From Myxococcota bacterium (GTDB lineage Bacteria > Myxococcota_A > UBA9042 > PHBI01 > JAWLBL01), in contig JAWLBL010000019.1 of assembly GCA_041687695.1 (NCBI GenBank), positions 32,001-96,000 of the forward strand: a stretch of 64,000 nt of DNA. The letters are read 5' to 3'. A program made the translations under genes and the position numbers. Positions within the stretch are counted from its first letter, which is position 1. Each line of letters begins with the position of its first letter. Below are positions 1 to 62,857 of the stretch, piece by piece. The notes under the pieces were generated by a model that saw nothing but the letters and a program-made list of their open reading frames with translations, was not told the origin of the DNA and ran no database searches.

Positions 1-876
1 GTGGCGCTCGTTGACGTTGATGAGCTCGTCGATGGCCTCGAGGCGGGTGGCGCCGTGGTCGCGGACGAGGGTGGTCAGGTAGGCGCGCAGGCGCTCGGGC
101 GAGTAGCGGCGCTGGGTCTTGGGGGCGCCGGGGTCGCGGCCCGGGTTCGAGCTGCAGTGCGTGCAGACGAAGGGGCAGCCGCGCGAGGTGACCAGCGGGA
201 GCGTGCGGCCGTCGATGGGGAAGGCCCAGGGGCCGCGGCCGAGGTTGCCGACGACGCGGGCCGAGAAGCGGTCGCGGGCGTCGAGGTCGACGAGATCCCA
301 GGCCGGGAAGGGCAGGGCGTCGAGGCTGGGCGGCGAGACGCCGCGGTGGGTGCCCTCGGGACGCTGGCCGCGGGACACCAGGGCGTCGAGCAGCGCGGGG
401 ACCGTGACCTCGGCCTCGTACTTCACCCAGGCGGCGGCCTCGGGGTAGCTGGCCAGGACGTCGGGGCCGTGGGCTTCGACGTAGTGCTGGCCCGACTGGT
501 AGCAGTCCGCCAGGAGGACCGGGGCGGCGGGGAAGGCGTCGGCCAGGCCGGCGAGCAGCTCGCCGAGGACGTCGTCGCGCGCGGGTGGGCGGTGGAAGGG
601 CGTGTAGGCCACCACGACCAGGTCGGGGGTCGGGCCGGCCGTGGCGGCGGCCAGCACCTCGGAGGTCGGGGCGCCGAGGTGGGCGCGTCCGTCCGGGCGC
701 CAGGCGAGGGTCGAGCCGGGCAGCGCGTAGGCGTCGACGAGCGTCACGGCGGCGCCGCGTTCTCGTAGCACCGACGCCACCTGCACGGCGCCGAGGTCCG
801 CCAGATATGGATAGTCGATGAAGTCCCGTGCTATCGTCACGGGCGGATGGATGATGATGACGCGCGGACCCGACAT
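1..876 (-). CDS. Cobalamin (B12)-binding radical SAM protein, 3' end runs off the window
   Basis: Not in the ORF track (no stop inside the window). Manual translation from ATG at 876: MSGPRVIIIHPPVTIARDFIDYPYLADLGAVQVASVLRERGAAVTLVDAY... (B12-binding-domain-like), then LDALPFPAWDLVD and TSRGCPFVCTHCS (CxxxCxxC at ~154-177). Confidence 0.85.
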   Translation of the reverse strand, partial: MSGPRVIIIHPPVTIARDFIDYPYLADLGAVQVASVLRERGAAVTLVDAYALPGSTLAWRPDGRAHLGAPTSEVLAAATAGPTPDLVVVAYTPFHRPPARDDVLGELLAGLADAFPAAPVLLADCYQSGQHYVEAHGPDVLASYPEAAAWVKYEAEVTVPALLDALVSRGQRPEGTHRGVSPPSLDALPFPAWDLVDLDARDRFSARVVGNLGRGPWAFPIDGRTLPLVTSRGCPFVCTHCSSNPGRDPGAPKTQRRYSPERLRAYLTTLVRDHGATRLEAIDELINVNERH

Positions 877-2801: not shown

Positions 2802-3856
2802 CGACCGCCGAGGCCAGCGCCCTCGGGCGCGAAGAGGTCGTCCAGCGCATCCAGACCCGGCAGGAGCGCATCCACGTCGCCATCGGCCCGGTCTGCAACA
2901 ACAACTGCATCTTCTGCATGGAGGAGGACCGCGTCGCGCGCGAGGTCGTCAACGGCTCGATGACCCCCGAGCGCGTGCGCCGCATCCTCGAGGCGAGCGC
3001 CGGGTCCGAGGAGGTGTGCTTCACCTCGGGCGAGCCGACGATGGTCGCCGAGCTGCCGCGCTACGCCCGCTGGGCGCGGCGCCTCGGCTACCGGCGCGTC
3101 AGCGTGATGACCAACGGCCGGCGCCTGTCGCACGCGCCCTACGTCGAGCACCTCGTCAAGGCCGGCATCAACTTCTTCTATGTCTCGATCCACGGCCACA
3201 CGCAAAAGCTCCACAGCGGCCTCGTTCGCGAGCCGGCGGCCTTCGAGCAGACGGTCGCCGGGCTCGACAACGTCTCCGCCTACAAGCGCGAGGGCGTGAC
3301 CCTGCACACCTCGACCGTGGTCACGCGGCGCAACGCCCCCTACTTCGCCGAGATCTATCGGTTCTTGCGCTCGCACGGCGTCGATCAGGTGGTCTTCAAC
3401 GTCATGCAGGCCAACGGCCGGGCCCACACCTACTTCGAGCAGCTCTTCCCGAAGTACACCGACATCGCCGCCGGCTTCGCCGCGTTCCTGAAGGACGAGC
3501 CCGAGCAGCCCGCGCAGGCCTTCCTGGTCGACATCCCGCTGTGCACGACCACGAACCTGCCGGACTTCAACCGCGGCTACGTCGAGCGCTACCTGCACTA
3601 CGAGCCCAAGGGGTTCCAGCAGCTCGAGCTCGGCGAGCGCGACGCGCCGGCGCCGGACGACGACCTCGTCGCGGTGACGCGCGCCGACCTCGACCGCAGC
3701 GAGCGCCTCAAGCGCCCCGAGTGCGCGAGCTGCCGATACGAGCCCGCCTGCGAAGGGGTCTGGAAGAACTACCTCGCCCGGTACGGATGGGACGAGATGG
3801 TCCCGGTCCCGCACCCGGCCGCGCCCGACGACGCCGCGAGGGCCACGCCTACGTGA
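2798..3856 (+). CDS. Radical SAM protein, HxsC-like, with C-terminal CxxCx5CxG
   Basis: GTG start overlaps the upstream stop (GTGA). CNNNCIFC, TSGEPT, MTNGRR, DIPLC and CASCRYEPACEG motifs; 352 aa. The earlier part of the 1088..3856 ORF is off-frame shadow. Confidence 0.88.
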   Translation: MTTAEASALGREEVVQRIQTRQERIHVAIGPVCNNNCIFCMEEDRVAREVVNGSMTPERVRRILEASAGSEEVCFTSGEPTMVAELPRYARWARRLGYRRVSVMTNGRRLSHAPYVEHLVKAGINFFYVSIHGHTQKLHSGLVREPAAFEQTVAGLDNVSAYKREGVTLHTSTVVTRRNAPYFAEIYRFLRSHGVDQVVFNVMQANGRAHTYFEQLFPKYTDIAAGFAAFLKDEPEQPAQAFLVDIPLCTTTNLPDFNRGYVERYLHYEPKGFQQLELGERDAPAPDDDLVAVTRADLDRSERLKRPECASCRYEPACEGVWKNYLARYGWDEMVPVPHPAAPDDAARATPT

Positions 3857-5652
3857 CGACGTCGGCTCGCGAGCGAGCGCCTCGGGTCGCAAGCGAGGTG
3901 GCCGTCGTGGCCGTCGAGGGGCCGTGCAACGACCGCTGCGTCGTCTGTCCCGTGCCCGAGCCACGACGCGTGGCGCCCGCCCAACCGGCCGCCGTCGCGG
4001 CCAGCCTCGCGCGCGCGGTCGCCCAAGGGGCCGACTCGGTCGTGTTCGCGGGCGGCGAGCCGACCCTGCTGCCGCGCTTCGTGGAGCACGTGCGGGCCGC
4101 GCGTCAAGCGGGCCTGGCGGTCGGCGTCGTCACCAACGGGCGCATGTTCGCCTACGCGCGGCTCGCGCGGGCCGCCGCGCGCGCGGGCCTCGGCTCCGCG
4201 ACGGTGGCGGTCCACGGGCCCGACGCCGCGACCCACCAGGCCGTCTCCCGCTCCGAGGGCTTCGACCAGGCGCTCGAGGGGGCGCGCCACCTGGCCGCCT
4301 GCGGCGTCGAGGTGACGCTGCGGCTGACCCTGCTCGCGGCGTCGCTCGACCGACTCGCCGACCTGCCGGCGCTGCTCGATCGGACGGGCGCCGCCCGGCT
4401 GGCGCTCGAGCTGCCCGATGCGGTCGAGGAGGGGGTCGAAGTCGCGCGGCGCGACGCGGCCGAGGTGGCCGTCGCGGCGCTCGTCGACCGGTTCGCGCGG
4501 TCGAGGCTGTCGGGGCGGCTCGACGTCGCGGCGCTGCCTCCGTGCTGGACCGGCGGCGCCAGCGGCGGCGTCGCGCTCCGGCCAGGCGCGGTGTTCGCGG
4601 CCCCGTGCGCCGACTGCTCGCTCCGCAGCCGCTGCCCCGGGCTGCCTGCGGCGATGGTCGACGCGCTCGGAGACGCGGCGGTGGCCCCGTTCCGCGTGGT
4701 CCGCTCGAACTCCTTCAACCTCGTGCCCCGGCAGCGGCTGGACTGGCCGGCCGGCACGCCGTGCCCCTTGCTGGTCGGGGCGCCCGCGCCGCGCTCGAGC
4801 GCCGACCGCGCGATCCACCTGCGCTCGGACGGCGCGCTGGTTCGCCACGAGACGACGACCGGCGACTTCGTCGACGCCGAGCTGCGGCGGGTCCTGCGCG
4901 ACTCGGGCCAGCTCTACGTCGACGTCAGCGACAAGGACGCGCCCGACGACTTCGCCGCCGACCTGCGCAAGCTGGTCGTGGCCACCGAGTGCGACGAGTG
5001 CCCTCGCCAACGCCGCTGCGGCCGCGCGTGGCAGGTCGACCAGCGCGATGTCTTCGGCGCCGACGACGCCCTGGTCGCGCAACGCATCGCGACGCTGAGC
5101 GGCGACGTGCTGGACGTGGGCTGCGGGCATGGCCCCTACGGCGAGCTGCTGGCGCCCTTGGCGAGCGGCGGCGCGCTGCGCTACGTCGGCCTCGAGCCCG
5201 ACGAGGCCCGGGTCCGCGAGCTGCGGGCGCGGTGGCCCTGGGCGACCCTGATCGCGGCCACCGCCGAGGAGGCACGCTTCGCGGAGGCGTCGTTCGATCA
5301 CGTGCTGATCCTGAGGAGCTACAACCACCTCGCGGCGCCTCGCGCGGTGCTGGCCGCCGTCACGCGAGCCCTGAGGCCGGGCGGGACGCTGCTGGTCGTC
5401 GACAACGAGGCCTTCGGGTTGGTCCGGACCCGCGAGGCGGCGGCGCGGGCCGAGGCCGGGTCGGCCGAGCACGAGCACTACCGCAACGACGGCGCCGCCG
5501 AGGCGCTCGAGGCGATGCGCGGGCTGCCGCTGACGCTGCTCGCGCGCGCCGACGTGGGGCCGGCGACCAGCAACCAGTGGCTGCTCCATCTGCGCAAGCA
5601 CGATGGCGACGCGGCCGCGCCTTCCTTGCTCCGGGGCGAGTCGGTGGTGTGA
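3853..5652 (+). CDS. Radical SAM - class I SAM-dependent methyltransferase fusion protein
   Basis: GTGA overlap with the upstream gene. CNDRCVVC, GGEPT, TNGR; CADCSLRSRCPG and CDECPRQRRCG; C-terminal VLDVGCGHG, FDHVL and LRPGGTLLV; 599 aa. Confidence 0.85.
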   Translation: MTTSARERAPRVASEVAVVAVEGPCNDRCVVCPVPEPRRVAPAQPAAVAASLARAVAQGADSVVFAGGEPTLLPRFVEHVRAARQAGLAVGVVTNGRMFAYARLARAAARAGLGSATVAVHGPDAATHQAVSRSEGFDQALEGARHLAACGVEVTLRLTLLAASLDRLADLPALLDRTGAARLALELPDAVEEGVEVARRDAAEVAVAALVDRFARSRLSGRLDVAALPPCWTGGASGGVALRPGAVFAAPCADCSLRSRCPGLPAAMVDALGDAAVAPFRVVRSNSFNLVPRQRLDWPAGTPCPLLVGAPAPRSSADRAIHLRSDGALVRHETTTGDFVDAELRRVLRDSGQLYVDVSDKDAPDDFAADLRKLVVATECDECPRQRRCGRAWQVDQRDVFGADDALVAQRIATLSGDVLDVGCGHGPYGELLAPLASGGALRYVGLEPDEARVRELRARWPWATLIAATAEEARFAEASFDHVLILRSYNHLAAPRAVLAAVTRALRPGGTLLVVDNEAFGLVRTREAAARAEAGSAEHEHYRNDGAAEALEAMRGLPLTLLARADVGPATSNQWLLHLRKHDGDAAAPSLLRGESVV

Positions 5653-11547: not shown

Positions 11548-12060
11548 TCAGCGCCGGAAGTAGTCGACGTGATCGATGGGGTCGAACTGGGCGAGGCGCT
11601 CCTGGCGGCCGAGCAGGGGCTGGCCACCGGCGAGGCGCTCCTCGGCCCCGGCGAGCTGCCGGGCGACCTGACGGACGAGGGCGACCTCGTCGTCGGGCGT
11701 GCGCCGCTGGCCGTCGCCGCCGTCGTTCATCAGGAACAGGTCGACGCGACCGGTGCTGGCGATGGCGCGCGAGTTCGGCTCGGCCGCGCAGATGCCGATG
11801 TTCGCCTGACGGCCGCTGGCCGCGTGGCGCGCCACGACGCGCAGGGCCCCCGCCTCGACGCCCGTGACCTCTTCGACGGCCCAGCCGTCCTCGAGATCGA
11901 GCCCACCCGGCAGGGCAGCTCGCACTTCGGCGGTCAGCGCGGCGCCGGGCGCAGCGGCGCGCGCCGCGCTGGGCAGGTTGGCCAGCACGAGGCCGGCGGC
12001 GGACGCGGCGATGAAGGTTCGCCGGTCGAGCCCGTTACTCTGGTCCTTTTGGCCGGACAT
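11548..12060 (-). CDS. Small Tat-exported hypothetical protein
   Basis: Twin-arginine signal DRRTFI + hydrophobic stretch + ARA; GGGAGGG SD upstream; divergent from the second rSAM operon. Confidence 0.8.
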   Translation of the reverse strand: MSGQKDQSNGLDRRTFIAASAAGLVLANLPSAARAAAPGAALTAEVRAALPGGLDLEDGWAVEEVTGVEAGALRVVARHAASGRQANIGICAAEPNSRAIASTGRVDLFLMNDGGDGQRRTPDDEVALVRQVARQLAGAEERLAGGQPLLGRQERLAQFDPIDHVDYFRR

Positions 12061-12331: not shown

Positions 12332-13090
12332 TTGGCGCAGGGGCTGACAGAGGCGCCGATCGTCAGGAGCGGATACGGGTGCAACAGCGCCTGCCGCTTC
12401 TGTGATCAGGGCGATTGGCGGACCACCCGTGGGGACCGCGCGGCCGACGAGGTCGCCGACGCGGCCGTTCGCGCGGGGCAGGGCGGCGGCGTGGTCGTCT
12501 TCTCGGGCGGCGAGGTGACGATGCGGCCCGAGCTCGCCGAGTGGGTCAGGCTCGCCCGAGGCGCCGGCGCCAAGCGCGTCCTCGTCCAGACCAACGGCCG
12601 CATGCTCGCCTACCCGGGGGTCGCGCAGCAGCTCCGCGACGCCGGCGTCGACGTGTTCGCCGTGGCGCTGCACGGCCACGTGGCCGAGCTGCACGACTGG
12701 CTGACCCGCACGGAGGGCAGCTTCGAGCAGGCTGTCAAGGGCGTGCGGCGGGCGCGGCAGGCCGGCGCGTCGATCATCGTCAACACGGTCGTCACGCGGC
12801 CGGGCTATCGGCACCTGGGCGAGATGGCGGCGCTCCTGTTCGGCGCGCTGGGCGCCTCGGGCTGGCGCCTCATCTGGCCGCGTCCCGAGGGCGAGCTGGC
12901 CGGCGGCCCCGCCGGCCTCACCCCCGAGCCCACGCTGGTGGCGCCGCACGTGGCGCGCGCCCGCGCCATCGCCGAGCGCGCCGGCAAGCGCCTGTGGCTC
13001 GAGCTGCCGGAGGCCGCGCTGGCCCCGGCGGCCTCTCCGGGCCCCGCACCCGAACCGGCCGAGGAGTCCTCCGATGTCCGTGTCGCCTGA
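12332..13090 (+). CDS. Short radical SAM protein (core domain only)
   Basis: TTG start after GGGAG; CNSACRFC, SGGEVT, QTNGRMLAY and ALHGH motifs; 252 aa; no C-terminal Cys cluster. Confidence 0.85.
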   Translation: MAQGLTEAPIVRSGYGCNSACRFCDQGDWRTTRGDRAADEVADAAVRAGQGGGVVVFSGGEVTMRPELAEWVRLARGAGAKRVLVQTNGRMLAYPGVAQQLRDAGVDVFAVALHGHVAELHDWLTRTEGSFEQAVKGVRRARQAGASIIVNTVVTRPGYRHLGEMAALLFGALGASGWRLIWPRPEGELAGGPAGLTPEPTLVAPHVARARAIAERAGKRLWLELPEAALAPAASPGPAPEPAEESSDVRVA

Positions 13091-14816
13091 GACGAGCGCC
13101 CCGCGCCCCGGACCGCGCGCGGTCATCGACGAGGAGATGCAGGCCGAGCTGGCCCGCGCCCTCGAGGTCAAGGACCTGACCAAGGAGGCCGCCGTCAAGC
13201 ACGCGCGGCACTGGGTCCGCCTGACGCGCCTGTGCAACCAGCGCTGCATCTTCTGCCTCGACTCGTGGAACCACAACGGGACCTACGTCGATACGCAGCA
13301 GCTGATGCAGTACATCGATCTGGGCAAGGCGCTGGGCCGCGAGCGGCTCATCCTGTCGGGCGGCGAGCCGACCATCCACCCGGACTACGTCAAGCTGCTC
13401 AAGCACGGCAAGAAGGCCGGCTACGACTGGATCCAGACCGTCACCAACGGGATGATGTTCGCCTACCCCGAGTTCGCGCGCCGCTGCATCCAGGCGGGGC
13501 TGAACGAGGTGACCATCTCGATCCACGGCCACACGCCCAAGCTGCAGGACCGCCTGGTCGGCGTCCCCGGCGCCTTCGACAAGGCCATCGAGGGCATCAA
13601 GAACATCCAGGCCCTGTCGGGCGGGCGGACGGTCGTCAACATCGACGTCGTCATCAACAAGCAGAACGTGCCGCACCTGCGCGAGATCATCGATCTGTTC
13701 CGCGGGATGGGCATCCACGAGTTCGATCTGCTGTACATCGTCCCCTTCGGGCGCGGGTTCTCCGAGTACCGGTCGCAGCTGTACTTCGACCTGGGCGAGC
13801 ACTACGACGATCTCCAGCGGGCGTTCGAGGTCTCGAAGGAGCCGGGGGTCTACATCTGGACCAACCGGCTGCCGGTCGAATACCTCGAGGGCTACGAGCA
13901 CCTCATCCAGGACCCGCACAAGCTGCACAGCGAGGTCCAGGGCGGGTTGCACAACTTCCAGGGCTACCTGGAGATGGGCACGCCGCCGGACTGTCACGGC
14001 GAGCGGTGCGGCCACTGCTTCCTGAAGGGCCTGTGCCACGATCAGATGTTCGAGTACCGGCAGCGGCTCGAGGCGCGGGCGTTCGACCGGGTGCGGGTCG
14101 ATCTCGACGTGCCGGTGCCCAGCACGCGGGCGGCCATCGCCCTGGACACGCAGCGCCCGCGCGTCGTGCACGTGCAGGGGGCCGACGCCGCGGCGATTCG
14201 CGAGTGGATCGAGGGGCATCCGTACCGTGACGAGGCGTACGCGCCCGAGCTGGTGGCCGAGCCGCGCGACGAGGCGACCAGCGCCGAGCTGATGGACGAC
14301 GCGGGCCTGGCGCGGGTGGTCGCCAACACGCCGGCGGCGCTCGAGCGCTTGCTGGCCGCGGCGCCCGAGGGCCGGGGGCCGGCGGTCGAGGCGCGGCTGA
14401 CCGCCGAGACGGCGCGCTGGCTGCAGGACAACGAGCCCCTGGCGCGCCCCTGGATCGAGGCCGACCGCCTGGTCGGGCACCTGCCGAACTTCGAGTACGT
14501 CTCGGGCGTGCGCGACAACGGCGTCGGCGGCGACGAGCTGCGCGCCCTGGCGGCGATGGGGCTGCGGCTGATGAACGTCGCGCCGTGCATCGGCGGGGCC
14601 AAGGCCGAGCCCGGCGCCCACCACGCCCTGTCGCGCGACATGCTGGACGACAAGGGGCGGCTGTCGGTCACCCCGTACGTGCAGCGCTACATCGAGGGCG
14701 AGTACTACAAGAAGAGCCTGCGCTGCCGCGGCTGCGCGCTGACCGAGACGTGCCGCGGGATGCACATCAACTTCCTGCGCGCCCACGGGTTCGCCCAGCT
14801 CCAGCCGGTCGGGTGA
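13074..14816 (+). CDS. Radical SAM protein (large, two extra Cys clusters); paralog of 948..2801
   Basis: CNQRCIFC, LSGGEPTIHP; central CHGERCGHCFLKGLC; C-terminal KSLRCRGCALTETCRGMH; GAGGAG SD. Confidence 0.92.
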   Translation: MSVSPETSAPRPGPRAVIDEEMQAELARALEVKDLTKEAAVKHARHWVRLTRLCNQRCIFCLDSWNHNGTYVDTQQLMQYIDLGKALGRERLILSGGEPTIHPDYVKLLKHGKKAGYDWIQTVTNGMMFAYPEFARRCIQAGLNEVTISIHGHTPKLQDRLVGVPGAFDKAIEGIKNIQALSGGRTVVNIDVVINKQNVPHLREIIDLFRGMGIHEFDLLYIVPFGRGFSEYRSQLYFDLGEHYDDLQRAFEVSKEPGVYIWTNRLPVEYLEGYEHLIQDPHKLHSEVQGGLHNFQGYLEMGTPPDCHGERCGHCFLKGLCHDQMFEYRQRLEARAFDRVRVDLDVPVPSTRAAIALDTQRPRVVHVQGADAAAIREWIEGHPYRDEAYAPELVAEPRDEATSAELMDDAGLARVVANTPAALERLLAAAPEGRGPAVEARLTAETARWLQDNEPLARPWIEADRLVGHLPNFEYVSGVRDNGVGGDELRALAAMGLRLMNVAPCIGGAKAEPGAHHALSRDMLDDKGRLSVTPYVQRYIEGEYYKKSLRCRGCALTETCRGMHINFLRAHGFAQLQPVG

Positions 14817-14822
14817 CCGCGG

Positions 14823-16013
14823 ATGGCGAACATCGGCTACATCCAGGTCGTCCGGCACTGCAACCACTTCTGCGGGTTCTGCTCGAACCCCACCACGCCC
14901 TACGTCCACACCTTCGAGACGATGAAGGTGCTGGTCGACGACTTCGTCCGGCGCGGCTACTTCGGCGTCATCCTGACCGGCGGCGAGCCGACCCTGCACC
15001 CCGAGCTGCCGCGCATCGCCGGCTACGCGCGCGACCAGGGGCTGCACGTGCGCATGATCACCAACGGGTGGCGGCTGGCGGACCCCGACTTCGCCCGCGA
15101 GCTGGCCGAGGCGGGCCTGCAGCACGTGCACGTGTCGGTCTACTCGGTGCGACCCGAGGTCGAGGCGCAGCTGCGAGGGCTGCCGAAGACGCTCGACAAG
15201 GCCTTCGCGGCCGTCGACAACGCCTACCGCTTCGGGCTGACCGTCGACGTCAACTGCGTCATCAATAGGCTCAACGCCGACCACCTCGACGAGAACATCC
15301 GCTACTGGATGACCCACCACCCGCAGGTCCGCCACTTCGTGTGGAACAACCTGGACCCGTCGATGGGGCGCGCCGAGGTCAACCAGGACCAGTACACGCC
15401 GCGGCTGGCCGACTTCGAGGCGTCGCTGTATCGCGCGCTGCGCCTGCTGCACGGGTCGGGGCGCACCTTCCGCGTCGAGCGCGTGCCGCTGTGTTACATG
15501 GCCGAGTTCGCCTGGGCCAGCACCGAGACGCGCAAGATCGTCAAGGGCGAAGAGCGCATCGTGCACTTCCTGGACGCCAAGCAGACGGTGCGCCAGACCG
15601 ACTGGGGGCACCACTACGACAGCGCCTGCGACGTGTGCTCGGTGCGCGGCATCTGCGGCGGCCTGTACGACAAGGGCGGGGCCTACGACCCGGCCGAGCT
15701 GGCGCCGCTGTTCGTGTCGCCCGACGCCATCGTCGAGCACATCATCACCGACCCGAGCGACCCCAGCTATCGGCTGCGGACGCTGGCCGAGTGGAAGGCC
15801 GACTTCGAGGCGCGGCGGCAGGCGCAGGTGAAGGCCGCCGCCGAGGCCGAGGCGCGGCGCAGCGTCGCGGGGCTGTCGGTCGGGGTCGTGACCGAGGAGG
15901 GGCAGCGCCTGTTCGAGAAGAAGCGGAAGGCCGAGGCCAAGATGGCGGCGCGGCTGGGCGTCGCGCAGGAGCGCCAGGATCGGCCGGACGCGGCGGGCGA
16001 GGGGGCGCCGTGA
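14823..16013 (+). CDS. Radical SAM protein, HxsC-like, with CxxCx5CxG and a charged helical tail
   Basis: CNHFCGFC, TGGEPTLHP, ITNG, RVPLC and CDVCSVRGICGG motifs. Confidence 0.9.
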   Translation: MANIGYIQVVRHCNHFCGFCSNPTTPYVHTFETMKVLVDDFVRRGYFGVILTGGEPTLHPELPRIAGYARDQGLHVRMITNGWRLADPDFARELAEAGLQHVHVSVYSVRPEVEAQLRGLPKTLDKAFAAVDNAYRFGLTVDVNCVINRLNADHLDENIRYWMTHHPQVRHFVWNNLDPSMGRAEVNQDQYTPRLADFEASLYRALRLLHGSGRTFRVERVPLCYMAEFAWASTETRKIVKGEERIVHFLDAKQTVRQTDWGHHYDSACDVCSVRGICGGLYDKGGAYDPAELAPLFVSPDAIVEHIITDPSDPSYRLRTLAEWKADFEARRQAQVKAAAEAEARRSVAGLSVGVVTEEGQRLFEKKRKAEAKMAARLGVAQERQDRPDAAGEGAP

Positions 16014-17218
16014 GCGCGCTGGGGGCCGGGCTGCTGATGCCCGACGGCGGCGGAGACGGGGCGACGCGCCGGCTGGTCTTGCGCCTGGTCAAGAAGCTGG
16101 CTCGGGATCTGATGACGCTGCCGCCCGCGGCGGTGCCGGCCGAGCTGGGCGGGGCCTTCGCCCAGGCGGCGCAGCTGGTGCGGCGGCTGGGCGAGGCGAA
16201 CGCGCGCGGGCTGTTCGCGGTGCTGCGGCGGCCGCAGGTGCACGTGCTGCTGACGTGCGCGTGGCGGGCCATCGAGGACGGCGACGTGCTCGACGCGCGG
16301 GCGCGGACGACGGCGCTGCTGGTGCAGCTGGGGTTCGAACTGGCGCTGGAGGGGGCGCTGCCCGAGGGCGCGGCGCTGCGGGTGCCCGTGCCGGCGCCCG
16401 ACGGGGTGCTGCGGTCGCCGAGCCGGCGGCTCGAGGTGGCGCTGCCCCGGCACGCGGGCCTGCGCTTCGAAAACGGCTTCGTCACGCTGGTGGGGCCCGG
16501 GACGCGGGTGCCGCTGGCGGGGCCGCCCAGCGAGCGGTTCCCCGAGGTGGCCCCCGGCGCGGTGTTGGCGCTGGTGGACAACAACCCGATCAGCGACTTC
16601 GAGGCGCACCCGGACAAGCAGGGCAACGCGCTGTCGCTGGGTGACGCGCCGGCGTCGGCCTGGACGGCGTCCATCGCCGAGGGGCTGGCCCTGGTGGGGC
16701 GGTGGCTGCCCGATCTGCGCGAGGAGATGGGGCTCGTCCTGCAGCAGCTGGTCCCGGTCGGCACCGACGACGAGAAGCACCTGTCGGCCAGCTACCGAGA
16801 GGCCATCGGCACCGTCTACCTGACGCTGCACCCGCGCCTGATGACCATGACCGAGGCGCTGATCCACGAGTATCAGCACAACAAGGTCAACATGCTGTTC
16901 CACGTGGACCCGGTGCTGCACAACGCCTACTGGCCGCTGTACACGTCGCCGGTGCGGCCGGACCCGCGGCCGCTGCATGGGGTGCTGCTGGCGGCGCACG
17001 CGTTCCTCCCTGTGGCCGAGCTGTATCGGCGCATGATGGAGGCGGGCGTCCCCGAGGCGACGCGGCCCGATTTCGTGGCGCGGGCGCGCCAGATCGTGCA
17101 GAAGAACGCGAGCGCGATGGCGACGCTCGAGGCGCACGCCGAGCCGACCGACGCCGGCCGCGTGCTGCTGGCCGAGATGACCGAGATGAACCGGAGGCAC
17201 CTCGCGTGGATGCCCTGA
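16010..17218 (+). CDS. HEXXH-motif peptide-modification enzyme (aKG-HExxH beta-hydroxylase-like)
   Basis: GTGA overlap with the upstream rSAM. EALIHEYQHNK followed by YTSPVRPDPRPLHGVLLAAHAF, the typical signature of the rSAM-associated HEXXH family. Confidence 0.88.
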   Translation: MSALGAGLLMPDGGGDGATRRLVLRLVKKLARDLMTLPPAAVPAELGGAFAQAAQLVRRLGEANARGLFAVLRRPQVHVLLTCAWRAIEDGDVLDARARTTALLVQLGFELALEGALPEGAALRVPVPAPDGVLRSPSRRLEVALPRHAGLRFENGFVTLVGPGTRVPLAGPPSERFPEVAPGAVLALVDNNPISDFEAHPDKQGNALSLGDAPASAWTASIAEGLALVGRWLPDLREEMGLVLQQLVPVGTDDEKHLSASYREAIGTVYLTLHPRLMTMTEALIHEYQHNKVNMLFHVDPVLHNAYWPLYTSPVRPDPRPLHGVLLAAHAFLPVAELYRRMMEAGVPEATRPDFVARARQIVQKNASAMATLEAHAEPTDAGRVLLAEMTEMNRRHLAWMP

Positions 17219-53988: not shown

Positions 53989-55338
53989 TCAGCCCGCCTC
54001 GGAGCGAGGACCACGTCCGCGTCGCGGCCCCCTCCGGCGCCGGCCACCGCGCGGCCGGCCTCCGCCATCCTCTCCGTCGGGGCCGCCTTCGTCGGGCGGG
54101 GGCGGGCTCGGGTCGTCGGTGACGCTCTGCTCGGTCCGTGGCTCGAAGGGCGCGGCCCACACGCCGTGCGCCAGGGCCGCGTCGGCCCAGCGCTCGTAGG
54201 TCTCGCGGTGCTCGCCGGTCCGGACGTAGCCCTGGCGCAACAGCGCCAACGCGAGCGGCAACGACGGGGACATCAGCATCGGACGGGTCGCGCGGAAGCG
54301 GCGCGGCGGGTGCAGCAGGCGGCGCATCAGGCCGGCGACCCCGCGCAGGCGCTGGCGCTGCCGCAGCGGGATCGCCATGCGCGCCGCGAGGGACGCGGTC
54401 AGCTCGGTGGCGATGTCGGCCCAGTCGCCCGTCTCGGGGTGCTCGAGCTGCGCGATCGCGTGCTGGACCAGGGGCCAGGTGAGCAGCGTGTAGACGCTCT
54501 CGCGGGGCAGCGTGCCGTGGGCCGCGGTCAGACGGTCCAGATCGCTCAGCCCGTCGAGCCATGGCGCCACCAGCTCGGGCGCGCGCGACAGGTGCGTCTG
54601 GATCTCGGGCAGGAGCGTCTCGAGGAGGCCGAGCTCCATCATGATCTCGAAGCCGCGTCGGGCGCAGCCGGACTCGGCGATGCGGAAGATCTCCTCGGTC
54701 ACTCGGGCGACCGGGCACTGGTGCACCAGCTCGACGAGGCTGCGCGAGGCGAGCGCGACGGGGGGATCGAGTTCGAAGCCGAGCCGGGCCGCGAACTTGA
54801 TGGCGCGCAGGATGCGGACCGGGTCCTCCCGGAAGCGCTGGTCCGCCGCTCCGATGGTGCGGATGCGCCGGCGATCGATGTCCGCGCGCCCGGCGACGTA
54901 GTCGATGATCTCGTCGCGCATGGGATCGTAGAAGAGCGCGTTGATCGTGAAGTCGCGGCTGTGCGCGTCCTCCTCGGGCGTGCCGAAGGTGTTGGCGCGC
55001 ACGACGAAGCCGGAGTCCCCCTCGGACTCCTGCTCCTCGGGCGCGCCGCGGAAGGTCGCCACCTCGAGGATCTTGGGCCCGCTGCGGACGTGCGCGAGGC
55101 GGAAGCGACGCCCGATGATGCGGCAGCGGCGGCCGAACAGCTCCTTGAGCTCGTCCGGGCTCGCGTCCGTGGCGATGTCGAAGTCCTTGGGCGTGCGGGC
55201 GAGCAGGAGATCCCTGACGCAGCCGCCCACGAGGTAGGTGGTGTAGCCCGAGCGTTGGAGGCGCTCCACGACCTCGATGGCGTCCCTGTCGAGGTGCTCG
55301 CGCGGAAACAGCATCTTGGCGGATCCTGGGTCGGTCAT
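53989..55338 (-). CDS. pcnB: Poly(A) polymerase I
   Basis: [22 protein letters not shown] signature [30 protein letters not shown]; Arg-rich tail. Confidence 0.92.
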
Positions 55339-55389: not shown

Positions 55390-55578
55390 GGCCGTGGCGG
55401 AGACCGAGGCCGAGGGCCGTGGCGGTGGCGGAGGCCGGGGCCGTGTCCGAGGCCGAGGCCGTGGCGGTGGCGGAGGCCGTGGCCGTGTCGGAGGCCGTGG
55501 CGGTGACGGAGGCCGTGGCGGTGGCGGAGACCGTGGCCGGGTCGGAGGCCGAGGCCTTGGCGGAGGCCGAGGCCGGAG
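55390..55578. repeat. Intergenic degenerate tandem repeat, 18-bp unit GGCCGTGGCGGTGGCGGA built of hexamers
   Basis: Units at 55415, 55433, 55457, 55475, 55493, 55511 and 55529 plus partial units. Confidence 0.8.
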
Positions 55579-55700
55579 CGCGATCGGGTGAGCGGCAGGG
55601 CCAGAGCCGGCCGCGGTGGATTCCTCGGCCTCGCTTCCGCTATAAGGTGGCGGGTTCGCCGGCCTTGGGAAGGGACCGGTGTGTCCAGGAAGGGGGAATC

Positions 55701-58700
55701 ATGCGGACTCGCCAGCTACGCCACGCGCTCGGGACCTTGCTGCTCGTCGCCTGGCCCGCGTCAGGGCTCGTCACCGGCTGCGGGACGGACGCGAACGTCG
55801 GCGGGGACTCCGACGCGAAGGCCACGCTCGACGCGCAGGTCGATGGGGCCGACGGGGCGGGGGACGCCCGAGCGGACGGGACGGCGACAGACGGCCAGGG
55901 CGACGGCGAGGACGCGACGCCGGGCTTCGTGTGCGAGGCCGCGGGCGAGTTCGGCTGCGAGTGCGCCAGCGACGCCGACTGCATCGACGGGTACTGCCAG
56001 CCGATGGCGGGCGGCTATCGGTGCAGCAAGACCTGCCAGGAGACGTGCCCCAACGGGCTGACCTGCGCGCTCGTCACCAAGAGCGGCCAGTCCGTCTACC
56101 TGTGCGTCGACGTCGGGGCGTGGCTGTGCTCGCCGTGCGAGACGTCCGCCGAGTGCGTGGTCGAGGGCGCGCCGCAGGGGGCGAGCTGCGTCATGGGGCC
56201 GGGCGGCGGCTTCTGCGGCGTCGCGTGCGAGAGCGGCAAGTGCCCGAGCGGCTATCAGTGCGCGCAGCCGGCGGGGCTCGATCAGCCGCAGTGCGTGCCC
56301 GCGAACGGCGAGTGCGGCTGCTCGCCGCTGGCGGTGGCGGACGCGCGGCAGACGACCTGCTCGGTGAGCAACGAACACGGCAAGTGCGAGGCGACGCGCG
56401 TGTGCGGCCCCGACGGGCTCTCGGCGTGCGCGGCGGCGACGCCCGCGGCCGAGGTCTGCGACGGCGTCGACAACGACTGCGACGGGCAGGCGGACGAGGG
56501 GCTGACCGGCGCGCCCTGCCAACGCGACAACGACTACGGGTCGTGCAAGGGGACGGCCGTGTGCGACGGGTCGGCGCTCAGCTGCGGCGCCCCCGAGCCG
56601 GCGCCCGAGGTGTGCGACGGGATCGACAACGACTGCGACGGCGAGACGGACGAGGGCGAGCTCGACACGGACCTCGACGGGGCCGCCGACTGCGTGGACC
56701 CGGACGACGACAACGACGGCGTCCCGGACGTGGCGGACAACTGCCCGACCGTGAAGAACCTCGAGCAGACCGACACCGACCTGGACGGGCAGGGGGACGC
56801 CTGCGACCCCGACATCGACGGCGACGGCGTCCCGAACGAAGCGGACTGCGACCCGCTGAACAAGAAGGCCTACCCGGGCGCCGAGGAGGTCTGCGACGGG
56901 GTGGACAACGACTGCAACGGCAAGACCGACGAAGGGTTCCCGAACGCCGACGGCGACAAGCTGGCCGACTGCGTGGACCCCGATCAGGACAACGACGGGT
57001 GGCTGAACACGCAGGACAACTGTCCGCTGCACCCGAACGTGAGCCAGTCGGACAACGACGGGGACGGTCAGGGCGACGCGTGCGATCCGGACGACGACAA
57101 CGACGGCGTGCCCGACGCGTCGGACAACTGTCAGTTCGTGAAGAACGCAGGTCAGGCGGACAACGACAAGGACGGCAAGGGCGACGCCTGCGACCCCGAC
57201 GACGACAACGACGGGCTGCCGGACGAGTCGGACAACTGCCAGTTCGTGGCGAACCCGACCCAGTCGGACGTCAACGGCGACGGCGTGGGCGACGTGTGTG
57301 ATCCCGACGCCGACAGCGACGGCGTCCCGAACGCCGAGGACAACTGCCCGCTGGTGCCCAACCCCGACCAGGAGGATCTGAACGGGGACGGCAAGGGCGA
57401 CGCCTGCACCGACGACAAGGACGGCGACGGGATCAAGGACGCCGTGGACAACTGCCCCGACGTGAAGAACACCAGCCAGACGGACACCGATCAGGATGGG
57501 CTCGGCAACGCCTGCGACCCGGACGACGACGACGACGGGATCGCCGACATCTACGACAACTGCACGGTGGTCGTGAACCCCGACCAGACCGATCAGGACG
57601 GCGACGGGCTGGGCGACGCCTGCGACGACGACATGGACGGCGACGGCGTCCCGAACGGCCAGGACAACTGCCCCAACCTGCCGAACCCGACCCAGGGCAA
57701 CGTCGACGGCGACGGGCTGGGCGACGCCTGCGACCCCGACATGGACGGCGACTCCATCCCGAACGCGATGGACAACTGCCCCAAGGCGGCGAACGCCAAC
57801 CAGCTCGACAGCGACGGGGACGGCCTCGGCAACGCCTGCGACGCGGACGACGACAACGACGGCATCCCGGACGCGAGCGACAACTGCCCGCTGGTGGCCA
57901 ACCCCTTCCAGGAGGACGTCGACGGCAACGGGGTGGGCAACGCCTGCGACAACGACATGGACGGCGACGGGGTCATCAACGTGGGTGACAACTGCCCGCT
58001 CGTCTTCAACCCGGACCAGGCGAACACGGACGGCGACGCGTTCGGCGACGCCTGCGACGCGGACGACGACAACGACGGCGTGCCGGACGTCGCGGACAAC
58101 TGCCCGACCCTCAAGAACGCGACGCAGCAGGACACGGACGGCGACGGCGTCGGCGACGTGTGCGACCCGGACATCGACGGGGACGGGGTGCCCAACGCGC
58201 AGGACAACTGCCCGACGGTCGTGAACCCCAGCCAGAGCAACGCCGACAAGGACGCGCTCGGCGACGCGTGCGACGACGACGACGACAACGACGGGCTGCA
58301 GGACGGCGTGGACAACTGCCCGACGGTGGCCAACGTCGACCAGAAGGACACGGACCTCGACGGCCTCGGCGACGCCTGCGACGGCGACGACGACAACGAC
58401 GGCGTGCTCGACGTGGTCGACAACTGCCCGAAGACGTGGAACCCGGACCAGAAGGACTCGGACAAGGACGGGCTCGGCGACGCCTGCACCACCGACAAGG
58501 ACGCCGACGGCGTCCCCGACGAGAGCGACAACTGCCCGACGGTGAAGAACCCGGCGCAGCAGGACCAGGACGGCGACGGCATCGGCGACTTCTGCGATCC
58601 CGACACCGACGGCGACGGCGTCGACAACGAGGTCGACAACTGTCCGCTCATCCCGAACGTGACCCAGATCGACACCGATGGCGATGGCCTGGGGGACGTG

Positions 58701-61292
58701 TGCGACTCCGACGACGACAACGACGGCTACCCCGACGCGACGGACAACTGTCCGCTGGTGGCGCAGCCGATGGGGCAGATCGACACCGACAAGGACGGCA
58801 TCGGCGACGCCTGTGACCCGGACGACGACAACGACAGCGTGCCCGACGCGGCCGACAACTGCCCGCTGATCTACAACCCCGACCAGGGGGACCTCGACGG
58901 CGACGGGCTGGGCGACGTGTGCGACCCCGACGACGACGGCGACGGCATCGACGACCTGTTCGACATCTGCCCCAAGCACTACGATCCCGAGCAGCTGGAC
59001 CTGGACTTCGACGGCTTCGGCGACGCGTGCGACCTCGACGACGACGACGACGGCGTTCCGGACGCGGTCGACAACTGCCCGACCGTCCAGAACCCGTCCC
59101 AGCTGGACCTCGACGAGGACGGGCTGGGCGACGCCTGCGACGAGGACATCGACGGCGACGGCGTCCCGAACAACAAGGACAACTGCAAGAGCGCCTTCAA
59201 CCCGGACCAGGCCGACTTCGACCAGGACTACGTGGGTGACGCCTGCGACGTGGATGACGACGGCGATCTCATCATCGACATCTACGACAACTGCCCCTAC
59301 TTCCCGAACACCGATCAGGCGGACCTGGACGGTGACGGGCTGGGCGACGCCTGCGACGACGACATCGACAACGATGGCGTCCCGGACGCTACCGACAACT
59401 GCAAGACGACCTACAACCCCGACCAGGCCGACTCGGACAAGGACGGGCTGGGCGACGCCTGCGAGAACGACTCGGACAACGACGGCGTGGGCGACGCGGT
59501 CGACAACTGCCCGTTCGATCACAACTCGGACCAGACCGACAGCGACGCCGACGGCCAGGGCGACGCGTGCGACGACGACATGGACGGCGACGGCCTGCCC
59601 AACGAGGACGACAACTGCCCCAAGGTCAGCAACGACCAGCAGACCGATCTGGACGGCGACGGCAAGGGCGACGCCTGCGACGATGACATGGACGGCGACG
59701 GAATCCCCAACGTCGTCGACAACTGCGAGAGCGTCTACAACCCGCAGCAGGCGAACTTCGACGGCGACGTCTTCGGTGACGCCTGCGACTCGGACGCGGA
59801 CGGCGACGGCGTGAACGACACGGGCGACAACTGCCTGTGGCTCAAGAACTCCGACCAGCTGGACACCGACGGCGACGGGTTCGGCGACGCCTGCGACAAC
59901 GACGACGACGGCGACGGCGTCCTCGACACGCAGGACAACTGCCCCAAGGTCTTCAACCCGGACCAGAAGGACACCAACGGCAACGGGCAGGGTGACGCCT
60001 GCTCGAGCGACCGCGACGGCGACGGCGTGCCCAACGGGCTCGACAACTGCCCCGACTTCCCGAACCTGGACCAGCTCGACAACGACAACGACGGGCTCGG
60101 CGACGCGTGCGACCCCGACGACGACAACGACAACGTGCCCGACGCCATCGACAACTGCCCGCTGCTCGCCAACGCCAACCAGAAGGATCTGGACGGCGAC
60201 GGGTACGGTGACGCCTGCGACGAAGACGACGACGGAGACAACGTCCTCGACGGCAACGACAACTGCCCGACGACGTTCAACCCGACGCAGGCCGACTTCG
60301 ACGTGGACGGGCTGGGCGACGCCTGCGACCCCGACGACGACAACGACGGGGATCCGGACGCCTCGGACTGCGCGCCCAAGAACAAGGACGTGCACCACGG
60401 CGCCAAGGAGATCTGCGGCAACGGCGTCGACGACGACTGCGACGGGCAGCAGGACACCGTCGGGGCCCAGGGCTGCGTCAACCGCTACTACGACGGCGAC
60501 GGCGACAACTACGGCAAGCCGAACAGCCAGGTGTGCATCTGCAACCCGGTCTACCCGCACACCGCGACGGCCGGCAACGACTGCAACGACACCGACAGCG
60601 CCATCTTCCCGGGCGCCAACGAGGTCTGCAACGGCAAGGACGACGACTGCGACGGGCAGACCGACGAGGTCGGCGCGGCGCCGCTGCCCAACTGCGTGCA
60701 CTACTACGAGGACAAGGATGGCGACGGGTTCGGCAACATGGCCGTCTCGCAGTGCCTGTGCAAGCCGACCGGGTTCATGACGGCCAAGCAGGCCAACGAC
60801 TGCAACGACTCGAACGCGGCCATCAACCCCAACGCGGTCGAGACGTGCGACGGCAAGGACAACGACTGCGACGGCGTCACGGACGGGCCCGGCTCGTATG
60901 GGTGCACGACGCTGTACAAGGACCAGGACGGCGACGGCTACGGGCGTGACGAGACGGCGTGCGTGTGCGCAGCGGCGCATCCGTGGACGGCGACCAACAA
61001 GCTCGACTGCGACGACGCCAGCCAAGAGGTCTACCCGAACAACCCCAACTACTACTTCCAGCCGACCAACGGGTCGTGGGACTACAACTGCGACGGGGTC
61101 GTGACCAAGAAGGACGAGGCGATCGGCAAGTGCTCCGGGACCGTCGGCTGCAGCACCGAGAAGCTCGGCTGGAACGGGTCGGTGCCCGAGTGCGGCCAGA
61201 CCGGCACCTGGATCCTGGACTGCAAGTGGAAGATCTCCAGCCTCAGCTGCAAGATCGACGACGACGAGAGCCGCCAGCAGTCTTGCCGCTGA
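55701..61292 (+). CDS. Giant thrombospondin type-3 repeat (Ca-binding) surface lipoprotein with MopE-like repeats
   Basis: ATG after AGGAAGGGGG; lipobox VTGC; about 32 DxDxDGxxDxxDNCPxxxNxxQxDxDxDGxGDAC units; EVCDGxDNDCDG units at both ends; 1863 aa. Confidence 0.9.
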
Positions 61293-61383: not shown

Positions 61384-61433
61384 AAGAAAGCCCGCGGTTC
61401 GCGGACGGCCTGGCCGCCGCGAACGCGCGGGCT
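61384..61433 (-). terminator. Putative Rho-independent terminator of the hxsD-like gene pair
   Basis: Long GC hairpin (AGCCCGCG...CGCGGGCT) followed by TTCTT on the minus strand; a second hairpin lies at 61303-61336. Confidence 0.6.
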
Positions 61434-61473: not shown

Positions 61474-61722
61474 TCAGCGCTTGCGCTCGATGGTCCCGGC
61501 GAGGACGAAGTTCGCCAGCTCGCTGGCCAGCGTCTCCGACGTGAAGTCCTCGTCCGTCGCGGTCACGTGGACCGTCCAGGCCTCGTCGCCCTTGTCGACC
61601 GTCAGCTCGGCGAGCGACGCATAGGCCTCGAGGGCGTCCTGGATGGCCGCGATCGCGTACACGCGCTTGTCGAAGGTGCGGGTGGCGGGCGTCGCCGCCG
61701 GGGCCGCCTCAGCCGCGCTCAC
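61474..61722 (-). CDS. HxsD-like small protein
   Basis: FDKRVYAIAAIQDALEAYA...LASELANFVL mirrors the HxsD pattern of the upstream gene; GTGA overlap. Confidence 0.7.
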   Translation of the reverse strand: MSAAEAAPAATPATRTFDKRVYAIAAIQDALEAYASLAELTVDKGDEAWTVHVTATDEDFTSETLASELANFVLAGTIERKR

Positions 61723-62240
61723 GCCTCACCCCCGCCGACCGGGCTGTGCCCGCCGCTGTCGCCGGGGCCGGCGACGCGCTCGGTGTCGGGGCCGGCCGCC
61801 ACGGGGGCGCTGCCGCTCTTCTTGAAGCGCTCCTCCCACGGGACGGCGATGCCGAGCGGATCGTCGAGGAAGTCGAGATCGTCGTCGTCCTCGTCGTCGA
61901 CGAAGGCCGCGGGCAGGGCGGCGCCGGTGGCGCCTGCCAGCGCCTGGGAGACGATGCTCTCGAGGATCGCCTGGTTGTCGGCGGTGATCCGTCGACGCAG
62001 GGCCTGGCTGAGCAGCTCGTTGCCGAACTCGCCCGCGAGCGCGCGCAGCGCGGCCTCGTCGGCCGGGGCCTTGGTCGCGATCTCGACCGTGATGTCATCG
62101 TCCGAGCGGCCCAGCAGGACGTAGGCCCGGTCGATGAACACGTAGGCGGCGCCATAGACCGCCTCGAGAGGGTAGAGGGTCTTGTCCAGGCTCAGGACGA
62201 GCTTTCCATCGGTCGCAGTCAGGATTTCGGGCGCGCTCAA
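61719..62240 (-). CDS. hxsD: His-Xaa-Ser system protein HxsD-like, with acidic C-terminal extension
   Basis: TTG start after GGAGGT; LDKTLYPLEAVYGAAYVFIDRAYVLL...GEFGNELLSQALRRRI matches the HxsD pattern; tail DDEDDDDLDFLDDPLGIAVPWEE. Confidence 0.75.
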   Translation of the reverse strand: MSAPEILTATDGKLVLSLDKTLYPLEAVYGAAYVFIDRAYVLLGRSDDDITVEIATKAPADEAALRALAGEFGNELLSQALRRRITADNQAILESIVSQALAGATGAALPAAFVDDEDDDDLDFLDDPLGIAVPWEERFKKSGSAPVAAGPDTERVAGPGDSGGHSPVGGGEA

Positions 62241-62353: not shown

Positions 62354-62857
62354 ATGGACGCCGAGACACTCGAACGGCTGCGCCGCAACAGCGGCCTGCG
62401 CCTCGACCGCGAGGGCACCTTCCATTTCCAGGACGCGCCGGTGCCGAACCCGCGTGTGCAACGCCTGTTCCACGAGGGCCTGGCCGTCCGCGACGACGGC
62501 GAGGTCGTGCTGCACGTCGGGGAGATGTGGGCCTACGTGGGCTGCGACGGCGTGGCGCGCTTCGTAGACGGCGTACGGTTTTTTCGGGATCGCCTCGCGC
62601 TGCGCCTGCGCGATGGACGCGAAGTGGAGGCCGACGCGCGTCACCTGGCGATCGGACCGGACGAGCGCTTCTACGTCTGGGCGACCGTGGACGGGCCGCC
62701 GGCGGTCCTGTCGCGTCCGGCGCACCAACAGGTCGCTGGACGGCTGACGGCCGACGACGACGGGCGGCTGCTCCTGGAGCTCGCGTCGGGGCTGGTCGCG
62801 ATCCGCGCGCTGGCGGCGGCCCCGGGGCCGTCGACGGCGTGGTCCGAGGGGCCGTGA
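62354..62857 (+). CDS. DUF1285-like protein
   Basis: LRLDREGTFHFQDAPVPNPRVQRLF...LRLRDGREV; ATG 6 nt after a CATGCT -10-like hexamer. Confidence 0.6.
   Translation: MDAETLERLRRNSGLRLDREGTFHFQDAPVPNPRVQRLFHEGLAVRDDGEVVLHVGEMWAYVGCDGVARFVDGVRFFRDRLALRLRDGREVEADARHLAIGPDERFYVWATVDGPPAVLSRPAHQQVAGRLTADDDGRLLLELASGLVAIRALAAAPGPSTAWSEGP

What the first reader, a model, noticed from the sequence alone, without database searches (positions are those of the whole stretch)
61474..62240. Isolated pair of HxsD-like genes 44 kb from the rSAM clusters
Seen: two overlapping, mutually similar small genes (DKxxYxxxA...ExxNxxL), the first with an acidic DDPLGIAVPWEE tail, closed by a terminator, with no rSAM or His-Xaa-Ser peptide adjacent. 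Known: HxsD normally sits beside HxsA/B/C. Inference: these are the accessory (possibly substrate-presenting) subunits of the dispersed rSAM system at 1-17 kb, which ties that system to the Hxs family. The conserved-looking tail could be a docking motif or even a substrate.
Basis: partly seen in the sequence, partly recalled or inferred. Interest (0 to 1): 0.7.

Follow-up and report, generated by a model that had tools for sequence, protein, structure and literature searches.

The report
Stranded HxsD helper-gene pair
These two small genes are the catalogued HxsD and HxsD-like helper proteins of a little-studied peptide-modifying system whose enzymes and His-Gly-Ser repeat peptide lie elsewhere in this genome, and they likely pair up as an adaptor that holds those enzymes together.

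Summary
Observation confirmed. 61719-62240(-) is HxsD (TIGR03976, 72 bits, cut-off 50); 61474-61722(-) is HxsD-like (NF038315, 64 bits, cut-off 41); each is the genome's only copy. The rest of a type-4 His-Xaa-Ser system is scattered: precursor HxsA4 4 kb upstream of the window, HxsC4 at 2798-3856, HxsB on contig C1. Of 107 phylum genomes with HxsD-like (301 searched), 107 have HxsB, 106 long HxsD, 104 the rSAM at 14823; 188 have neither HxsD-like nor HxsB. Seven same-order relatives read hxsD, hxsD-like, a catalytically dead hxsB, pcnB; here a 5.9-kb repeat gene stands in the dead copy's place, which explains the isolation. The acidic DPLGIAVPW tail is conserved, repeated up to three times in some homologs and missing from two canonical-type HxsDs: more likely a docking motif than a substrate. 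HxsD domains are fused to HxsB in two genomes. Best reading: a heterodimeric adaptor for HxsA4 maturation; binding is untested. HxsA4 lacks the signal peptide and peptidoglycan anchor of the E. coli anti-phage effector. The scan found this system, and this gene pair, before on other DNA. Catalogued families; no study of this variant in the papers searched.

The parts
61719..62240 (-). hxsD, long form: HxsD domain (residues 5-105) plus acidic low-confidence tail with DDPLGIAVPWEE (126-137)
   Evidence: TIGR03976 72.2 bits, cut-off 50; only copy in genome; model pLDDT 90-98 for residues 1-100, 54-66 beyond 110
61474..61722 (-). hxsD-like gene (short paralog ending after the first long helix, no tail)
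   Evidence: NF038315 63.5 bits, cut-off 41; only copy over cut-off; model pLDDT 91.5
61390..61406 (-). terminator-like hairpin closing the two-gene unit
   Evidence: 1 found, shuffles 0.3 +/- 0.6
55419..61292 (+). large thrombospondin-3-type repeat gene standing where relatives have a dead hxsB copy (context; start uncertain)
   Evidence: NF047638 repeat hits; synteny
53989..55314 (-). pcnB, the gene that follows the dead hxsB in seven relatives (synteny anchor)
   Evidence: TIGR01942 333 bits, cut-off 306
14823..16013 (+). unnamed HxsC-like radical SAM enzyme; the window enzyme that best tracks the pair
   Evidence: TIGR03977 90 bits, below cut-off 268; orthologs in 104 of 107 HxsD-like genomes
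2798..3856 (+). HxsC4 radical SAM enzyme (accessory)
   Evidence: NF038332 545 bits, cut-off 500; 40 of 301 genomes at E<=1e-80, 39 of them with HxsD-like
1..876 (-). 5' part of a B12-type/HxsC-like double radical SAM gene (continues outside the window)
   Evidence: two CxxxCxxC motifs
1005..2801 (+). HxsC-like radical SAM enzyme; orthologs flank the HxsD pair in relatives
3898..5652 (+). radical SAM-methyltransferase fusion; orthologs flank the pair in relatives
12332..13090 (+). HxsC-like radical SAM enzyme
13074..14816 (+). HxsC-like radical SAM enzyme; orthologs flank the pair in relatives
16010..17218 (+). aKG-HExxH-type peptide hydroxylase
   Evidence: TIGR04267 92.6 bits, cut-off 40
11548..12060 (-). 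unnamed small protein with a twin-arginine-like N-terminus (read by eye); homologs sit beside the pair in several relatives
   Evidence: no NCBIfam or Pfam hit; neighbours in L063, L078, L089, L108, L112

Best explanation
The two genes encode the HxsD and HxsD-like subunits of a dispersed type-4 His-Xaa-Ser system, and they likely form a small heterodimeric adaptor that would hold HxsB and the HxsC-like radical SAM enzymes on the His-Gly-Ser repeat peptide HxsA4. Shown: family membership; HxsA4 (18 HxS triads), HxsC4 and HxsB elsewhere in the genome; co-inheritance and synteny in relatives; the pair is alone here because a repeat gene stands where seven relatives have a dead hxsB and the active hxsB already sits at a separate conserved locus. 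Inferred: the two paralogous domains dimerise; a domain surface binds HxsB; the acidic DPLGIAVPW tail is a short docking motif that recruits further enzymes; the product is a heavily modified His/Ser/Gly peptide made in the cytoplasm, serving an ordinary, vertically inherited cell function rather than the E. coli-type periplasmic phage block.
For: HMMs over cut-off: HxsD, HxsD-like, HxsA4 128.6/55 and HxsC4 545/500, HxsB 531.9/370 at C1:78826-80343. Of 301 phylum genomes, 107 have HxsD-like; of these 107 have HxsB, 106 long HxsD, 104 the 14823-type rSAM, 102 an HxsA4 match; 188 have neither HxsD-like nor HxsB. HxsD-like lies within 2.5 kb of an hxsB-type gene in 85 of 107 (3 of the 85 through dead copies); of the other 21 relatives, 19 have window-type rSAMs, HxsA or a dead hxsB beside it. 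In E. coli HxsD is required for HxsA processing and pulls down with HxsC (PMC13128918, sections 8 and 9). Fusions: an HxsD domain is in one frame with active HxsB in 2 of 79 HxsB-type ORFs seen (G179, G304; 39 and 35 bits against at most 6.4 in 500 shuffles); one of 273 proteins (P0268) has two HxsD domains in tandem, the first short, the second with the tail. A CxxxCxxC-less hxsB follows the pair in 7 of 17 other genomes of the order and has dN/dS about 0.24 in one comparison, which fits a structural complex. Tail: strict motif in 128 of 150 diverse representatives, W135 invariant in 147 aligned rows, low model confidence, 2-3 copies in 7 of 273 proteins, absent from the two canonical-type HxsDs examined, whose genomes lack HxsD-like.
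Against: No binding experiment exists for this variant. The two genes are not inseparable: in families f34, f27, f31, f22 and f52 they lie apart. The E. coli pull-down found HxsD with HxsC and no stable HxsB-HxsC association, whereas the genomic links here point to HxsB. The fold likeness to known dimerisation domains (RpoL/Rpb11, Pcc1) is weak: Foldseek E 0.002 or worse, Z 5.7-6.5, below other unrelated rows. Related genomes are not independent, so the counts overstate. The system is not universal: in the order only 12 of 18 genomes had any HxsB-type match, 3 of 8 in family f5. The chemistry and end function were not tested.
Confidence: 0.62

Rival explanations
1. The two proteins are accessory subunits of the same system but act separately (as monomers or homodimers), one serving HxsB and the other the HxsC-like enzymes, in the manner of a PqqD-like chaperone.
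For: In f34, f27 and f31 HxsD-like precedes hxsB while HxsD lies elsewhere, often near the 14823-type enzyme (5 of 8 such loci plus G048); E. coli HxsD binds HxsC; single HxsD domains are fused to HxsB.
Against: In f52 the pairing is reversed (HxsD with hxsB, HxsD-like near HxsC-like genes), which fits one shared complex better; 106 of 107 co-occurrence; 4-bp overlap; tandem two-domain protein P0268.
Confidence: 0.2
2. The conserved tail is itself a substrate: a radical SAM enzyme modifies or cross-links its invariant Trp, and the pair is a precursor-like protein.
For: Invariant W135 in a flexible segment; peptide-modifying rSAMs often act on Trp (recalled); nine rSAM genes in the contig cluster leave room for a second substrate.
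Against: A standard precursor is present here and matched in 102 of 107 HxsD-like genomes; the tail follows a folded domain and has no leader; variable copy number is typical of docking motifs (recalled).
Confidence: 0.1
3. The system works like E. coli HXS: the pair helps mature an exported HxS effector that blocks phage DNA entry.
For: Same protein families; the only tested Hxs system is anti-phage (PMC13128918, abstract and sections 8-10); a twin-arginine-like protein travels with the system and could export the peptide.
Against: HxsA4 is 112 aa, shows no hydrophobic signal peptide by eye, no peptidoglycan-binding Pfam hit and no Lys or Arg in its repeats; the paper shows signal peptide and anchor are essential. 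The genes sit in conserved housekeeping synteny (pcnB, infC), are present in 54 of 58 sampled genomes of the class, and 12 proteins scanned gave only generic rSAM and E1 domain matches in PADLOC.
Confidence: 0.15
4. The pair is a relic, left behind and no longer used in this genome.
For: Its downstream partner gene is missing from the assembly; no Hxs neighbour; such full isolation was seen only here and in G289 among 106 genomes examined.
Against: Both frames are intact with all conserved residues, 65-83% and 54-59% identical to orthologs; every core partner is in the genome; a likely ribosome-binding site and terminator are kept.
Confidence: 0.04

Closest known systems
NCBIfam type-4 His-Xaa-Ser models: HxsA4 NF038313, HxsC4 NF038332, HxsD-like NF038315, with HxsD TIGR03976 and HxsB TIGR03978
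   Same: All five models score over their cut-offs in this genome.
   Different: Here the parts lie at three or more loci; the most constant HxsC-like enzyme (14823) has no model; tail, dead HxsB and fusions are not covered by the models.
Canonical HXS anti-phage system HxsD-HxsB-HxsC-HxsA (Li et al., Nat Commun 2026, PMC13128918)
   Same: HxsD and HxsB families; Tyr of the LYW-type motif (Y23) and the LLNDYxLRE-type helix (EFGNELL) are kept; HxS-repeat substrate.
   Different: One HxsD and a four-gene operon in 99.6% of cases there; two paralogs, a conserved tail, dispersed genes and nine or more rSAMs here; no HxsC over cut-off; HxsA4 lacks signal peptide, peptidoglycan anchor and basic repeats; that survey is 99.7% Pseudomonadota.
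Small alpha/beta dimerisation subunits RpoL/Rpb11 and KEOPS Pcc1-Pcc2 (working analogy only)
   Same: Same order of strands and helices in the predicted models; they appear among the fold-search rows.
   Different: Scores are within background (Z under 8, E above 0.001), 7-18% identity; homology not shown.

Membership tests
HxsD (TIGR03976) | HMM score over curated cut-off | tested here: met
   72.2 vs 50
HxsD (TIGR03976) | LYW-type Tyr and LLNDYxLRE-type helix needed in E. coli | tested here: met
   LYP (Y23) and EFGNELLSQALRR; Y23, N74, E75, L76, R82 at least 90% conserved; variant, not literal, motifs
HxsD-like (NF038315) | HMM score over curated cut-off | tested here: met
   63.5 vs 41
Type-4 His-Xaa-Ser system | HxsA4 precursor in the genome | tested here: met
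   NF038313 128.6 vs 55 at C19:27799-28137
Type-4 His-Xaa-Ser system | HxsB with CxxxCxxC in the genome | tested here: met
   TIGR03978 531.9 vs 370, C1
Type-4 His-Xaa-Ser system | HxsC4 in the genome | tested here: met
   NF038332 545.3 vs 500, window 2798-3856
Type-4 His-Xaa-Ser system | Co-occurrence of the pair with HxsB, HxsA4 and the cluster's rSAMs | tested here: met
   107, 102 and 104 of 107; kin not independent
Canonical HXS anti-phage system | Contiguous hxsD-hxsB-hxsC-hxsA operon | tested here: not met
   parts on C19 (two places, 44-65 kb apart) and C1
Canonical HXS anti-phage system | HxsC (TIGR03977) over cut-off | tested here: not met
   best 91.5 vs 267.9 among 25 matches
Canonical HXS anti-phage system | HxsA with signal peptide, peptidoglycan-binding domain and basic HxS repeats | tested here: not met
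   112 aa, ends in the repeats; Pfam only a low-complexity collagen match; 0 Lys/Arg in repeats; signal peptide judged by eye
Canonical HXS anti-phage system | HxsD binds an HxsC-type enzyme | not testable with these tools
   needs a pull-down
Canonical HXS anti-phage system | Blocks phage DNA entry | not testable with these tools
   needs a phage assay
RpoL/Rpb11 or Pcc1-type dimerisation fold | Structural match standing above background | tested here: inconclusive
   RpoL E 0.0024, Z 6.5 (rmsd 4.9, 88 aligned); Pcc1 Z 5.7-5.9

The most novel reading that the evidence does not exclude
HxsD/HxsD-like is the hub of a multi-enzyme radical SAM assembly line: a symmetry-broken heterodimer that binds HxsB (and, in some lineages, a dead HxsB scaffold) by its domains and uses a universal DPLGIAVPW docking tail to bring in a changing set of up to a dozen HxsC-like enzymes, which write a dense modification code on an 18-repeat His-Gly-Ser peptide that serves a core, non-defence function in much of Myxococcota.
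Probability: 0.25. Interest if true: 0.65.

Novelty: new member of a known kind. Interest (0 to 1): 0.35.

Why it matters
HxsD's role is open even in E. coli, where it is essential but its mechanism is unresolved. This locus shows that the helper module is kept on its own when the enzymes move away, and it supplies cheap handles for a test: a 12-residue tail with an invariant Trp, natural HxsD-HxsB fusions, a two-domain fusion and a dead HxsB. It also names the likely core enzyme of the myxobacterial variant (14823), which has no family model. The gene pair itself is catalogued and common in this phylum, so the surprise is moderate.

Tried and rejected
Complex prediction of HxsD + HxsD-like + the 14823 enzyme, partner the enzyme: no answer (score 0.00 in two runs, mark 0.32; no controls, no contacts); not used as evidence either way. 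HxsD with HxsD-like alone, and either with HxsB, were not modelled. Fold searches of both models gave no match at E<=0.001 and none above Z 8.0. Search for longer or fused forms of HxsD-like: none at E<=0.001 among 7,994 candidates, weak evidence. Fusion screen of 20 further second-copy hxsB loci: 0 of 20. Dead hxsB in this genome: tblastn and genome search hit only the active copy; no DNA remnant in the window beyond pcnB overlap and short chance matches; the assembly has 63 contigs, so loss is likely, not proven. No RNA holder listed. Pfam gave no hit for either protein in the local copy (the homolog table lists PF27806 for HxsD). No sigma-70-type promoter match. The HxsB tree finished only in quick mode and is used only for the grouping of the C1 gene. 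HxsC4 as the core partner was rejected (39 of 107). Haft and Basu 2011 was not held. Supplements of PMC13128918 were not opened; its Supplementary Figs 11-12 may bear on HxsB-HxsD binding.

Full report
Observation. The two minus-strand ORFs are real: 62240-61719 (173 aa) and 61722-61474 (82 aa), overlapping by GTGA, with DKxxYxxxA and ExxNxxL in both. They are distant paralogs: BLASTP E 0.087, profile-profile probability 96.9. One terminator-like hairpin follows at 61406-61390 (shuffles 0.3 +/- 0.6). The first scores 72.2 bits on HxsD TIGR03976 (cut-off 50), the second 63.5 on HxsD-like NF038315 (cut-off 41). Each is the only copy in the genome. Names that sources give to close homologs point to Myxococcota.

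The rest of the system. The window is C19:32001-96000. The genome's only HxS repeat is at C19:27799-28137, 4 kb upstream of the window: HxsA4 (128.6 bits, cut-off 55), 18 HxS triads ending in Trp. It heads nine genes with CxxxCxxC, seven of them in the window, plus an HExxH hydroxylase. 2798-3856 is HxsC4 over cut-off; no canonical HxsC reaches cut-off among 25 matches. HxsB (531.9 bits) stands apart on C1. In a quick-mode tree it groups (support 92) with HxsB genes that directly follow the pair in family f6.

Profiling, 301 genomes of the phylum, this one included. HxsD-like: 107 (104 over cut-off). HxsB at E<=1e-60: 113. All 107 have HxsB, 6 have HxsB only, 188 neither. Long HxsD: 106 of the 107. 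Ortholog of the 14823 enzyme: 104 of 107, 2 outside. HxsA4 at E<=1e-6: 102 of 107, 15 outside, mostly weak. HxsC4 at E<=1e-80: 39 of 107. HxsD-like is within 2.5 kb of an hxsB-type gene in 85 of 107, 3 of them dead copies. Of the other 21 relatives, 19 have window-type rSAMs, HxsA or a dead hxsB beside it, G289 is isolated as here, and G036 (contig end) was not examined. Of 20 loci of about 19 kb chosen across families, 9 hold orthologs of window rSAMs at 200 bits or more, and the other 11 an hxsB-type gene. The system is in 54 of 58 sampled genomes of the class, but in only 12 of all 18 of the order. Kin are not independent and many assemblies are incomplete.

Why the pair is alone. Seven of the 17 other genomes of the order (G159, G099, G304, G279, G301, G244, G303) read hxsD, hxsD-like, an hxsB copy without CxxxCxxC, pcnB. 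That copy is 30-36% identical to active HxsB, and dN/dS is about 0.24 between G159 and G099 against 0.18 for the active gene (Nei-Gojobori, one pair, high GC). In G159, G099, G244, G279 and G301 the active hxsB lies in the same neighbourhood as on C1 here. In this genome a 5.9-kb thrombospondin-3-type repeat gene on the other strand lies between hxsD-like and pcnB, and the dead copy is not found. G249 and G289 have active and dead hxsB in tandem. Inferred: duplication of hxsB, loss of the cluster motif in one copy, splitting of the operon, then loss of the dead copy here.

Anatomy. Both models show a small alpha/beta domain ending in a long helix; HxsD adds a second helix and a low-confidence tail. 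RpoL/Rpb11 and Pcc1, known dimerisation subunits (recalled), appear in the fold searches, but within background, so this is a lead only. The tail motif is in 120 of 120 close homologs (biased by the query), in 128 of 150 representatives at 50% clustering (several misses are fragments or variants), and W135 is invariant in 147 aligned rows (fragments and long forms were left out of that alignment). Seven of 273 proteins carry two or three copies. The two canonical-type loci examined (G258, G120) have one tail-less HxsD and exported-looking HxsA, and no HxsD-like match. P0268 has two HxsD domains in one chain. In G179 and G304 an HxsD domain is in frame with active HxsB (2 of 79 HxsB-type ORFs); G179 showed no separate pair.

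Mechanism. In E. coli, HxsD is needed for HxsA processing and defence and co-purifies with HxsC; HxsB did not co-purify with HxsC (PMC13128918). I infer that the type-4 system has split this subunit into two paralogs that dimerise, bind HxsB through the domain (adjacency, fusions, retained dead copy) and recruit HxsC-like enzymes through the tail. Against this: the genes lie apart in five families, though with opposite partners in f34 and f52. The likely chemistry is His-to-Ser cross-linking plus methylation and hydroxylation (inferred from the enzyme types; three-residue cyclophane chemistry is recalled, one search gave a listing only; E. coli shows +8 Da on SHRSS). An anti-phage role is less likely, as HxsA4 lacks the features that the paper shows to be essential.

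Literature and earlier notes. Searches for His-Xaa-Ser plus radical SAM, HxsA-D and HxsA4, HxsC4, NF038313, NF038315, TIGR03976, HxsD-like found only the HXS paper and its preprint as studies of the system; 'Myxococc' does not occur in its main text. I read its abstract, passages and sections 8, 9 and 10, not its supplements; of PMC9062424 two passages; of the others only listings. Subscription journals are largely outside the library. Earlier notes of this scan describe the same system in at least 10 genomes and the same pair once; one describes a dead HxsB in an archaeon.

Verdict. Real, correctly read by the first stage, and a member of catalogued families. The added points are the cause of the isolation, the dead HxsB, the fusions, the repeated tail and the 14823 enzyme as core partner. 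Interest 0.35.

Noticed in passing
L050:8100-9509, L052:3684-5060, L053:8439-9812, L157, L159, L161, L077, L081: HxsB copies with the CxxxCxxC segment deleted but the N-terminal region and barrel kept; behind the HxsD pair in 7 genomes of the order, in tandem with active hxsB in G249 and G289; G303 has a second one (L172). 12 of 79 HxsB-type ORFs seen lack the motif.
   Followed up: partly
L163:1072-2970 (G179), L170:1174-2967 (G304): Natural in-frame fusions of an HxsD domain to active HxsB.
   Followed up: partly
P0268; P0137, P0177, P0200, P0234, P0235, P0250, P0260: One protein with two HxsD domains; seven with two or three copies of the tail motif.
   Followed up: partly
window 14823-16013: Unnamed HxsC-like rSAM, 42-81% identical across the phylum sample and present in 104 of 107 HxsD-like genomes; no NCBIfam model over cut-off.
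   Followed up: partly
window 62354-62857: Divergent gene upstream of hxsD, syntenic with the pair in several relatives of the order; no Pfam or NCBIfam hit; Atlas look-alikes are DUF1285-like in 13-35% of members. Link to the system unknown.
   Followed up: partly
window 55419-61292: About 1,900-aa thrombospondin-3-type repeat protein inserted between pcnB and the pair; preceded by an Ala/Val/Glu low-complexity stretch that makes its start uncertain.
   Followed up: partly
window 11548-12060: Small protein with a twin-arginine-like leader that travels with Hxs genes; possible export partner.
   Followed up: partly
L177-L191, L074, L082: Many relatives carry a second active hxsB, often behind an ortholog of the rSAM at C50:1873-2817; this genome has that rSAM without the second hxsB.
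   Followed up: no
G000 C12:76928-85449, C19:162033-163721, C50:1873-2817: Further HxsC-like rSAM genes outside the window whose homologs flank the pair in relatives.
   Followed up: partly
L051 and L084 (G099): The hxsD locus appears twice in that assembly, once with a frame break in the dead hxsB; possibly an assembly duplicate.
   Followed up: no
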